64,000 nucleotides of DNA from assembly GCA_965153285.1 (NCBI GenBank), contig OZ229126.1; one strand, given 5' to 3'. Shown here one piece after another: positions 17,901 to 20,309 of the stretch; positions within the stretch are counted from its first letter, which is position 1; each line of letters opens with the position of its first letter. This stretch comes from Podarcis tiliguerta (Eukaryota). A program made the position numbers.

Positions 17901-20309
17901 GTCACAAGCCTGGCAAATCTGGAACTATGCTTGACGATCTGATAAAGCTGATAACCTTTACTTGGACTTTGTTATTTTAACTCATCTGTGTACATTTTAT
18001 AGTTTTGTTTTTCATCTTTAAATTTTTGACTGTTGTTATATTGTTTAGAACAGTGGTTTACAGAGGGGCATAGTTCAGAAGGCAGAAGCTGGGAAATACT
18101 GGGTGAGGAACAGCTAGAAGAGGAAACGCCAGGAGAGAGACAGCTAGCAGATTCCCCCCTTCGCCTAAGACTAGACAGGCTTTTGAGAGTGATAGAACAG
18201 AGAGCGCAGTGACAATAAGCTCAGATTACCTGGCATAGGAGTGACGTAGATTAAGGGGGACAGAGGGGGTGCACCTTTACTGGGAGCAACGCCATTTCGA
18301 GAAACGCATTCCTTTGTCTCTCACTGTGATTATTAAAGAAACTAACTGGTAAGAGCACACCTTTTGCTTGATCTGCTTATTTACTGCCACCAGCAGAGGG
18401 ATCTGACACCTGGGCTTCGGTGAACCCTTTTCAGTGAATTGCAGCTTGCCTGCCTATTCAGCCAATGGCAGGCGGGGTTGATTTTTATAAATAATTTTAT
18501 AATTTCAAGCTTCAAGATGTCTTATTTACAACATCTTTCTTTACTATGTTGTAGGACGTAGGTAGAAATGCAGATACATAAAAGAACCAAATTTGTCGCT
18601 GCATCTTTCTGTTTCTTTGCTTAAGATGGTAGATTTGCGGAATGCGCTGAGTATGTTTTTTTTTCTGAAAAGGGAGCATTAGGCCAAACAAGTCTTAGAA
18701 CCTCTTATTCAGAGTATTTCTACTCCTCTCCTTATTTTAACCTAGCCTGAATCATCACACTTCATCTCATCACAGTCTTAATGTGTTGCATCAAACAAAT
18801 ATTCACACAGAGATCCTAAATCTCAAGTCAAAGGATGCCATACCTTCCAGCTTCTATCATTTACCACTTCTTCAACGTTCAGCTCTGACTGCATTAATCT
18901 CAACTGTGGGAGAAAGGAAAGAAGGTAAGTACTCTCGGCATCAGGAGCTTGGCAAGATGGATGGGTTCCTATCAGCAGCAGACTGACAGGGATCATGTTC
19001 TTTATCATCCAGCGAAACCAGGTAGAAGCTGAAACATTTATTCACGTAAATAAAAACATTACGACAAACACTGAAGATCCCTGAACATTAACTGGTAGTC
19101 CCAGACCCTACCATCCAGCAAGTGGTACCCTGCAAGACGAATGCCTCGGAAGACGAAAAACTTGCAAGACGAAAGAGTTTTTCGTTTTCTGAGGTGCTTC
19201 GCAAGACGGATTTTCCAAAGGGCTTGCTTCGCTAGACGAAACGGCCCTGCCTCTTGTGTCATGGCGACGCGCACTGCACGCACGCACGCTCGCTTCCCCC
19301 CTCCTCCGGCTCCCTCCCACCTTCCGGCTGACGGTTAGTGCCTCGCGCCGCTGCCCACCCCCCTCGCGCTGTCTCCTCAGAGAGCCGTTGCCGCCAGCGC
19401 CTCTCTCTCCTTGGAGTCGCGCTCCTGAGTCCCGCCACCCTCCAGCAGCCGCGTCGCATGGTGGCCACAACGCGCGGGTGAGTCCGAGGTACCGGCTGCG
19501 GCAGCTGTCCCGCCCCTCCCCGCCGTTGTCAGTGTTTAAACGCAGTGGTGCTTCGCAAGACGAAAACTCGTACAACGAAAACACTTGCGGAACGAATTAA
19601 TTTTGTCTTGTGAGGCACCACTGTATGTGAATTTAACATAGGTATCGAGAGCCTGGCCTTGAACAGGTATTAGAACATTTATCTGGCGGAAGGGGATTTT
19701 TTTTCCCCTGTCCAAGAGACCACAAAGCAGAGATGGGGAATCTTTTTCGGACGGAGGGGCAGGTTCCCTTGCCTTCGTACAGTAGGCTGTTTTCTGCACA
19801 GTCTCGCACACACCCTCTATCCTCCATCCATGATAATGCAAGAAAGGTCATCAGGGCTCAAGGGCATATTCTGGCCAGGCAAAACACTTAGGAAGAGTGC
19901 AAAGTAGGGCTGGTAAGGGGTGCAGCCTGAGGAGAAAGGATGTGACTGGTGAGAGGGAGAGGGGCCAGGGAAATGTCCCAAGGGCCAGACAGAAAGGCCT
20001 ATGTTCAGTAAGCGAGACCTGCATGTACAGTGGTGCCTCGGGTTAAGTACTTAATTTGTTCCAGAAGTCCGTACTTAACCTGAAACTGTTCTTAACCTGA
20101 AGCACCACTTTAGCTAATGGGGCCTCCTGCTGCTGCCGCGCAGCCGGAGCACGATTTCTGTTCTCATCCTGAAGCAAAGTTCTGAACCCGAGGTACTATT
20201 TCTGGGTTAGCAGAGTCTGTAAACCGAAGCGTAAGTAACCTGAAGTATATGTAACCCGAGGTACCACTGTACTATCTTTTTTCCGCTTGTGATTATGAAT
20301 TGTACACTA

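What the first reader, a model, noticed from the sequence alone, without database searches (positions are those of the whole stretch)
19120..19623. Pack-type MITE carrying an apparently captured CpG-island promoter/first exon, antisense inside MIX23 intron 3
Seen: the first about 123 bp and last about 85 bp align with the reverse complement of the 40603-40868 MITE, but where that copy has a short AT-rich filler of about 55 bp this one has about 290 bp (19244-19535) of CpG-dense sequence. The insert reads like a gene 5' end on the + strand: RFX-like GTCATGGCGAC, NRF1-like GCGCACTGCACGCACGC, ETS CTTCCGG, a pyrimidine-rich UTR-like stretch, ATG at 19458 (MVATTR..) and a consensus donor GG|GTGAGT at 19478, then GC boxes. 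Known: TIR elements can capture host fragments (Pack-MULE/Pack-TIR type). Inference: a non-autonomous Tc1/mariner family acquired a host promoter plus exon 1 and may distribute ready-made promoter/splice-donor cassettes; here it could drive an antisense transcript through MIX23. Undecayed CpGs imply a young or unmethylated insert.
Basis: partly seen in the sequence, partly recalled or inferred. Interest (0 to 1): 0.75.

Follow-up and report, generated by a model that had tools for sequence, protein, structure and literature searches.

The report
Lizard MITE copy with CpG-rich core
One copy of a small cut-and-paste transposon remnant in a lizard gene intron carries about 290 bases of unique CpG-rich DNA in its middle; it may be borrowed from a gene start, but its source could not be traced here and the phenomenon is already known in animals.

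Summary
The structure is real. Window 19120-19623 is a non-autonomous Tc1/mariner-type element. Its middle, about 19244-19537, is unique in the window, with GC 0.71 and CpG o/e 0.95. It lies in MIX23 intron 3, antisense, 216 bp from exon 4.

The capture reading is plausible but unproven.
- All three copies have unrelated middles, so this family has a hypervariable core.
- High CpG is family-wide (o/e 1.1-1.6). Copy A has lost the most arm CpGs, 5 of 20.
- ATG plus open frame plus GTGAGT donor arises in 3.5% of shuffles on either strand.
- The "NRF1" site is not an exact match to the recalled palindrome. The ATG is a CATG palindrome with a better start context on the other strand.
- No donor locus was found in the window or through three protein searches. 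No lizard genome was on hand.
- Copy A's left terminus is degraded.

Best reading: filler DNA from break repair, the Pack-TIR type known in animals (PMC8277862). Modest interest.

The parts
19120..19243 (+). Left terminal module of MITE copy A. It carries a terminal inverted repeat with a degraded tip (AAGTGG for CAGTGG) and several GCAAGACGAA-type direct repeats.
   Evidence: 92.7% over 123 columns to copy B and 84.3% to copy C. Repeat families D1-D3. Retains 9 of 11 inferred ancestral CpGs.
19244..19537 (+). Copy-specific core. It is unique, GC- and CpG-rich DNA that is C-rich on the + strand, and it is bordered by AAACG at 19239-19243 and 19538-19542.
   Evidence: No other copy in the window beyond 26-bit chance matches. 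GC 0.71 and CpG o/e 0.95. No similarity to the cores of B or C above shuffles. No Pfam, Rfam or tRNA hit.
19321..19327 (-). CCGGAAG (ETS-type core; consensus recalled from memory).
   Evidence: Exact motif scan. It is a single short motif, which is weak evidence.
19458..19483 (+). ATG, six and two-thirds codons (MVATTRG), then GTGAGT at 19478-19483.
   Evidence: Read. The combination occurs in 1.2% (given strand) and 3.5% (either strand) of 2000 shuffles.
19543..19623 (+). Right terminal module. An inner copy of the terminal repeat (CAGTGGTGCTTCGCAAGACG) faces the outer one, so the module is itself an 81-bp hairpin. It is followed by TA.
   Evidence: Inverted repeat I1, 23 nt, 87% complementary. 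Folds at -44.5 kcal/mol, z -10.3, with 0 of 200 shuffles as stable. 83.7% to copy B.
40603..40868 (-). Copy B of the same family: 266 bp, TA on both sides, 56-bp AT-rich core.
49454..49774 (+). Copy C of the same family: 321 bp, TA on both sides. Its 124-bp core has a pyrimidine run and CCGCTAAG-type short repeats. It lies between importin-alpha exons.
20361..20507 (-). MIX23 exon 3, with donor AAG|GTGAGT.
   Evidence: Pfam MIX23 profile positions 58-96. 94% identity to Lacerta agilis CCDC58. tblastn. Splice sites read.
18844..18903 (-). MIX23 exon 4. Its acceptor lies 216 bp from the left end of copy A.
   Evidence: tblastn. Pyrimidine tract, CAG acceptor and GTATGG donor read.

Best explanation
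Copy A is a dead copy of an abundant non-autonomous Tc1/mariner-type element of a lacertid lizard. The family consists of two conserved end modules, about 124 bp on the left and about 81 bp on the right, around a core that differs in every copy seen.

In copy A the core is about 294 bp of unique, non-repetitive, CpG-island-like DNA. The most likely origin is filler DNA. A double-strand break inside the element, from excision repair or a fragile hairpin, was repaired by copying from an ectopic template and switching back. This is the gap-filling route described for animal Pack-TIRs.

The template may have been the 5' CpG island of a gene (promoter, short first exon, start of intron 1), but that is inferred from short motifs only.

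At this locus the element is most likely a passive passenger in MIX23 intron 3.

Shown: the anatomy, the family membership, the uniqueness of the core within the window, and the gene context.
Inferred: the repair mechanism, a host origin, and any promoter activity.
For: - Arms match two other copies far beyond chance (E 7e-48 and 3e-20; terminal pattern 9 matches against 0 in 100 shuffles).
- The three cores (296, 56 and 124 bp as cut) share nothing above shuffled controls. A-B is reached by 265 of 300 shuffles, A-C by 172 of 300, B-C by 102 of 300.
- The sister family with the same termini keeps its core in 3 of 3 copies, E, F and H.
- The A core has no tandem or palindromic build. Only short imperfect repeats were found, and TRF found only a 24-bp CGCA run. 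This looks more like unique DNA than a MITE core.
- None of the 4 minus-strand and 2 plus-strand ORFs across the core has a Pfam hit. Rfam gave nothing above its gathering scores, with a best E of 0.024 in the right arm. There is no tRNA.
- The core meets CpG-island numbers: 292 bp, GC 0.71, o/e 0.95.
- ATG + open frame + GTGAGT occurs in 3.5% of 2000 shuffles on either strand.
- The kind is documented. 370 Pack-TIRs were found in 100 animal genomes, 115 of them TcMariner. Most are single-copy and attributed to transposition-independent gap filling (PMC8277862, passages read).
- Anolis non-autonomous DNA transposons show 'incorporation of extraneous DNA sequences' (PMC3014272, abstract and passages).
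Against: - No parental locus was found. There is none in the 64-kb window, although 56.9% of the 281 unique Pack-TIRs in PMC8277862 lie within 15 kb of their parent.
- Three protein-database searches with frames through the core found nothing: no hit at E <= 0.01 among 173 word-sharing candidates; 0 hits among 1.84 billion representatives; no hit at E <= 10 among 206 candidates. These are weak tests for non-coding DNA.
- With only three copies, a longer subfamily that owns this core cannot be excluded.
- Another TIR element 1.3 kb away (20918-21708) also has a GC-rich core (GC 0.68, CpG o/e 0.71). So GC-rich cores need not be host-derived in this genome.
- The core's TG and CA are in excess (o/e 1.27, 1.37), unlike the window's two promoter islands (0.59-0.82).
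- The + strand is C-rich throughout (GC skew -0.12 to -0.26).
- The ATG is a palindrome with a stronger start context on the other strand.
Confidence: 0.5

Rival explanations
1. The core belongs to the transposon. Copy A represents a longer subfamily or progenitor whose about 290-bp GC-rich interior is carried by many TIR-flanked copies. No host gene was the source, and copies B and C are other subfamilies or deletion derivatives.
For: - Three copies with three different cores fit several subfamilies as well as repeated filling.
- The family is CpG-rich by nature: arm o/e 1.45-1.55, copy B 1.62.
- A neighbouring TIR element has its own GC-rich core.
- No donor was found.
- Anolis Tc1/mariner non-autonomous families share no similarity with autonomous elements and vary widely in structure (PMC3014272).
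Against: - The core lacks the subrepeat and palindrome build of the arms and of the other cores.
- B and C cores are not sub-stretches of the A core, so they are not simple deletion derivatives.
- The ATG-donor combination is somewhat unlikely by chance (3.5%).
Confidence: 0.28
2. A Tc1/mariner MITE captured a host promoter, first exon and splice donor. It has spread them as a multicopy cassette, and here it drives an antisense transcript through MIX23.
For: - CpG-island numbers.
- CCGGAAG 131 bp upstream of an ATG, a 20-nt coding stub and a GTGAGT donor on one strand.
Against: - Only one copy of the core is seen.
- Copy A's left terminus and target duplication are degraded.
- Most animal Pack-TIRs are single-copy (PMC8277862).
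- No transcript data were available.
- There is no exact NRF1 palindrome, TATA or CCAAT.
- The CpG state is not special to the core.
Confidence: 0.08
3. The core is a fragment of an unrelated repeat, such as a GC-rich 5' part of a LINE, an LTR piece or a satellite. It would have been inserted or recombined into the MITE. The AAACG at both borders would be a short target duplication.
For: - AAACG directly abuts both borders (19239-19243 and 19538-19542).
Against: - There is no second copy or partial copy of the core in 64 kb that holds many repeats.
- No terminal repeats belong to the core itself.
- No protein-domain or RNA-family hit was found.
- AAACG-like strings are part of the family's GACGAAA motif, so the 5-bp match may be chance.
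Confidence: 0.12

Closest known systems
Pack-TIRs of animals (Tan et al. 2021, Nat Commun 12:4280, PMC8277862; abstract and passages read)
   Same: Both have TIR-transposon sequence on both sides of an internal stretch that is not part of the element. The Tc1/mariner superfamily is the second commonest carrier (115 of 370). The breakpoints lie inside the element, not at its tips. The element appears to be single-copy, and an old copy may have been refilled.
   Different: The defining parental copy free of TE flanks has not been found. No parent lies within -19 kb or +44 kb, although more than half of the described cases have one within 15 kb.
Pack-MULEs and Pack-TYPE elements of plants (PMC5861414, passages read)
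   Same: A non-autonomous TIR element carrying GC-rich gene-like DNA. A bias towards GC-rich cargo is described there.
   Different: They differ in superfamily (Mutator, 8-11 bp target duplications), in kingdom, in copy numbers (thousands), and in having documented parental genes.
Non-autonomous Tc1/mariner families of Anolis carolinensis (Novick et al. 2010, PMC3014272; abstract and passages read)
   Same: Both have TA target duplications, variable TIRs and no similarity to an autonomous element. High structural diversity is put down to recombination and uptake of extraneous DNA.
   Different: This is a different lizard family (the window is lacertid; closest protein match Lacerta agilis). 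No sequence comparison with the TcMar-N families was possible here.

Membership tests
Tc1/mariner-type non-autonomous element (MITE) | TA target-site duplication | tested here: met
   Copies B and C have TA on both sides. Copy A has TA on the right only, and its left side reads GC/CA. Of the 5 sister-family elements aligned, D, F, G and H show TA on both sides, while E has TG on its left.
Tc1/mariner-type non-autonomous element (MITE) | Terminal inverted repeats shared by several short copies | tested here: met
   The 20-nt terminal pattern gives 9 matches against 0 in 100 shuffles. The 12-nt tip gives 19 matches against a mean of 0.52. Arm pair I3 is 76% complementary and I1 87%.
Tc1/mariner-type non-autonomous element (MITE) | No coding capacity of its own | tested here: met
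   The ORFs overlapping 19120-19623 (minus strand of 28 aa or more; plus strand of 60 aa or more) have no Pfam family at the E-value limits used (1, 0.01).
Tc1/mariner-type non-autonomous element (MITE) | Termini shared with an autonomous Tc1/mariner element that encodes a DD(E/D) transposase | not testable with these tools
   No transposase domain was found in any of the 481 ORFs scanned. These were 150 of the 260 minus-strand ORFs of 28 aa or more listed for 9-32 kb and all 331 remaining ORFs of 60 aa or more. No lizard genome or repeat library was on hand.
Pack-TIR (captured host DNA inside a TIR element) | TE sequence on both sides of the internal stretch | tested here: met
Pack-TIR (captured host DNA inside a TIR element) | The internal stretch is not TE sequence | tested here: inconclusive
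   The stretch is unrelated to the cores of B and C and to anything else in the window. It has no domain or RNA-family hit. No repeat library could be searched.
Pack-TIR (captured host DNA inside a TIR element) | A parental copy elsewhere in the genome without TIR flanks (criterion in PMC8277862, Methods passage) | not testable with these tools
   None was found in the window. Protein-level proxies were empty. The genome itself is not in any collection offered.
CpG island (length at least 200 bp, GC at least 0.5, observed/expected CpG at least 0.6; thresholds recalled from memory) | Composition thresholds | tested here: met
   The core is 292 bp with GC 0.712 and o/e 0.95. Whole MITE copies B and C also have CpG o/e above 1, and 400-bp windows around C pass the thresholds, so the test does not discriminate here.
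RNA polymerase II promoter with first exon | Transcription start and splicing from the donor | not testable with these tools
   No expression data were available. The sequence proxies are one CCGGAAG, one GGGCGG, and no exact NRF1 palindrome, TATA or CCAAT. ATG+donor occurs in 3.5% of shuffles on either strand.

The most novel reading that the evidence does not exclude
The core is the promoter, first exon and splice donor of a lizard gene. It has been picked up by a Tc1/mariner MITE family whose middle is a general uptake site. TIR-flanked copies of this cassette would then be scattered through lacertid genomes, where some start new or antisense transcripts. That would be a vertebrate counterpart of plant Pack-MULEs that moves promoters rather than coding pieces.
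Probability: 0.08. Interest if true: 0.65.

Novelty: new member of a known kind. Interest (0 to 1): 0.3.

Why it matters
If the core has a TIR-free parent at a gene start, this would be a clear reptile example of a Tc1/mariner element duplicating a CpG-island promoter with a splice donor. That is raw material for new first exons and antisense RNAs.

The more useful lead may be the family itself. Three copies in 64 kb have conserved ends and three unrelated middles. This suggests a recurrent break-and-fill site that could be surveyed genome-wide.

If the core is only a subfamily interior, the finding is ordinary repeat annotation.

Tried and rejected
1. Looking for the donor inside the window. 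blastn with word size 7 found no match to the core above 26 bits.
2. Looking for the donor through protein collections, using open frames across the core. The minus-strand 162-aa frame gave none at E <= 0.01 among 173 candidates. The plus-strand 135-aa frame gave 0 hits among 1.84 billion representatives. The plus-strand 49-aa frame ending in MVATTRG, searched against longer proteins, gave none at E <= 10 among 206 candidates. These are weak tests for non-coding DNA and say little.
3. Known RNA families and tRNA-derived repeats. Nothing reached a gathering score. The best match was mir-2804 at 25.5 bits against a threshold of 86, on the right-arm hairpin. There are no tRNAs.
4. Nested deletion series. 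B and C cores are not parts of the A core.
5. A nested element with its own inverted repeats. None was found in the core.
6. An autonomous partner in the window. No transposase domain was found in 481 ORFs.
Stop-free ORFs were used instead.
8. The bacterial/archaeal contig collection and the phage, plasmid and E. coli collections were not searched, because they cannot hold a lizard locus.
9. The MIX23 exons were located one by one. The joined (spliced) model was not built or searched.

Full report
**What is there.**
- Window 19120-19623 (+) was read directly and aligned to the reverse complement of 40603-40868.
- A blastn of the element against the whole window gave two matches. The left arm, 19121-19243, matches 40745-40867 at 92.7% over 123 columns (E 7e-48). 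The right arm, 19540-19623, matches 40603-40688 at 83.7% over 86 columns (E 3e-20).
Its arms are 84.3% and 79.2% identical to copy A.
- A three-way alignment shows copies B and C bounded by TA|CAGTGG...CCACTG|TA.
- Copy A ends correctly on the right (CCACTG|TA). On the left it reads GC|AAGTGG, so its tip and left target duplication are degraded.
- The 20-nt terminal pattern occurs 9 times in the window against 0 in 100 shuffles.

**Family architecture.**
- The arms are built from GCAAGACGAA-type subrepeats.
- The right arm begins with an inner copy of the terminal repeat, so 19543-19623 is an 81-bp hairpin. It folds at -44.5 kcal/mol with z -10.3, and 0 of 200 shuffles fold as well.
- At least five more elements of about 230-450 bp share the same 12-nt tip but have different subrepeats: 20028-20269, 24937-25382, 30220-30466, 36554-36795 and 53747-53977.
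- In that sister family three copies (E, F, H) keep a common core.
- In the A/B/C family the three cores (296, 56 and 124 bp as cut) show no similarity above shuffled controls. The observed local score was reached by 265, 172 and 102 of 300 shuffles.
- So the variable middle is a property of the family, not a peculiarity of copy A alone.

**The core of copy A.**
- Region 19244-19535 has GC 0.712 and 33 CpG, o/e 0.95. The window overall has o/e 0.41 and the flanks 0.30-0.34.
- It has no other copy in the window (best 25.6 bits).
- It has no tandem or palindromic organisation beyond a 24-bp CGCA run and short imperfect repeats.
- No Rfam match reached a gathering score. There is no tRNA. No ORF across it has a Pfam hit.
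- AAACG abuts both borders (19239-19243 and 19538-19542). This may be microhomology or a short duplication, or it may be chance, because the arms are full of GACGAAA strings.

**The promoter and first-exon reading.**
- ATG at 19458, MVATTRG, and GG|GTGAGT with GT at 19478 are as stated.
- In 2000 dinucleotide-preserving shuffles of the core, a GTRAGT on a given strand occurred in 6.2%. An ATG with an open frame up to such a donor occurred in 1.2% on a given strand and 3.5% on either strand.
- Among 12 other GC-rich 292-bp tiles of the window, 2 show the combination. They overlap each other and lie in the CpG island at about 30.7 kb.
- CCGGAAG is present once (19321, minus strand) and GGGCGG once (19510, minus strand). 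The exact NRF1 palindrome, TATAAA and CCAAT are absent. The consensus strings were recalled from memory.
- The ATG lies in a CATG palindrome. The other strand reads GCCACCATG followed by 66 open codons, so the start codon does not favour the + strand.
- The + strand is C-rich throughout (GC skew -0.12 to -0.26).
- Taken together, the donor-plus-ATG is a modest, post hoc argument for a gene 5' end. The other motifs add little.

**CpG state and age.**
However, all three copies are CpG-rich over their whole length (o/e 1.10, 1.62 and 1.11).
- At 20 arm positions where at least one copy has CG and the others have CG, TG or CA, copy A retains 15, B 18 and C 17. Copy A is therefore the most decayed of the three.
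- The core has TG o/e 1.27 and CA o/e 1.37. That resembles the genome average (1.18, 1.19). It differs from the promoter islands at 25361-26310 (0.80, 0.59) and 30341-31240 (0.69, 0.82). The numbers are small (19 TG, 17 CA), so this is weak evidence against long-term protection from methylation.
- A separate TIR element only 1.3 kb away (20918-21708) has a GC 0.68 core with CpG o/e 0.71, made of 119-bp tandem units. GC-rich cores can therefore be transposon-owned in this genome.

**Gene context.**
- Pfam scans of stop-free ORFs found MIX23 profile pieces on the minus strand at 21921-22190 and 20310-20507.
- The exon 3 peptide alone was searched. It hit CCDC58/MIX23 of Lacerta agilis (94% identity) and Pogona vitticeps (84%).
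- A tblastn of those named proteins against the window placed the exons as follows:
  - exon 1 at 26014-25964
  - exon 2 at about 22109-21978
  - exon 3 at 20507-20361
  - exon 4 at 18903-18844
  - exon 5 at 17490-17443
- Intron 3 is 18904-20360 (1457 nt). It holds copy A, 216 bp from the exon 4 acceptor, and sister-family element D.
- The exons were handled one by one. The joined spliced model was not built or searched.
- The neighbours are cystatin exons (4078-4425 +, 9526-9654 -), a DUF1075/FAM162-type exon (34814-35044 +) and importin-alpha exons (45.6-61.1 kb, -).
- The window is lacertid lizard DNA. It was not taken for human.

**Origin of the core.**
- The decisive test is a TIR-free parental locus in the same genome.
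- As a proxy, three open frames through the core were searched against the protein collections, without result. For non-coding DNA this says little.
- No transposase domain was found in 481 ORFs of the window, so no autonomous partner could be compared.

**Comparison with what is known.**
- Tan et al. 2021 (PMC8277862; listing, abstract and passages) report 370 Pack-TIRs in 100 animal genomes, 208 hAT and 115 TcMariner. Most are single-copy and attributed to transposition-independent gap filling with template switching. Microhomology was present at one or more breakpoints in 67.6%. 56.9% lay within 15 kb of the parent. Their definition requires a parental copy without TE flanks.
- Novick et al. 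2010 (PMC3014272; abstract and passages) describe 17 non-autonomous Tc1/mariner families in Anolis with TA duplications. They also describe a diversity of structure due to recombination and uptake of extraneous DNA.
- Zhao et al. [quoted passage not shown]
- A search for lacertid + Tc1 + transposable elements found 13 papers, of which 12 were listed. One was read in passages (PMC10058329). It reports Tc1/mariner-like fragments in lacertid genomes and mRNAs but nothing on captured promoters.
- I found no paper on Pack-type Tc1/mariner elements in lizards. Supplementary tables of these papers were not opened.

**Verdict.**
- The anatomy is real and the context is right.
- The most likely account (about 0.5) is filler DNA copied into a break inside a MITE whose middle is prone to such events. 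That is a Pack-TIR-type event, possibly from a gene's CpG-island 5' end.
- Copy A itself is degraded at one tip and is probably immobile.
- This would be a new member of a known kind, and the interest is modest.

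Noticed in passing
Its 124-bp core has a pyrimidine run and about five CCGCTAAG-type short repeats.
   Followed up: yes
window 20028-20269, 24937-25382, 30220-30466, 36554-36795, 53747-53977; partial at 20641-20725: These are sister MITE families with the same 12-nt tip (CAGTGGTACCTC) and TA flanks, but with GGTTA-type subrepeats. 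Three of them share a conserved GC-rich core. 24937-25382 looks like two elements side by side.
   Followed up: partly
window 20918-21708: A 791-bp element in MIX23 intron 2 has 29-nt inverted termini (ATTACCGTATTTTTCG...). Its GC-rich core is made of 2.2 copies of a 119-bp unit and nested palindromes. The superfamily was not determined.
   Followed up: partly
window 19239-19243 and 19538-19542: The same 5 bases (AAACG) directly abut both borders of the copy-specific core. This could be microhomology, a short duplication or chance.
   Followed up: no
window 19528-19630: The right arm is a near-perfect 24-bp-stem hairpin. It gave a weak, sub-threshold Rfam match to a microRNA precursor family (mir-2804, 25.5 bits against 86). 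MITE hairpins of this kind are a known source of such matches.
   Followed up: partly
window 37643-38680: A 346-codon open frame has an internal duplication (SWTIKKADRRR...LLRVPWTARR... occurs twice). From memory it resembles the C-terminal part of RTE/BovB-type LINE ORF2. Pfam gave only a weak Mis12 match (E 0.0029), and the opposite strand is also open for 291 codons.
   Followed up: no
window 25464-25596 (minus strand): The alternative N-terminal exon of Lacerta agilis CCDC58 isoform X1 aligns here at 48-58% identity, with an in-frame stop. That isoform may therefore not be conserved in this species.
   Followed up: no
window 4078-4425 (+), 9526-9654 and 11640-11732 (-), 34814-35044 (+), 45619-61131 (-): The gene order is cystatin(s) - MIX23 - DUF1075/FAM162-type gene - importin alpha. 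From memory this matches the human CSTA-CCDC58-FAM162A-KPNA1 neighbourhood.
   Followed up: partly
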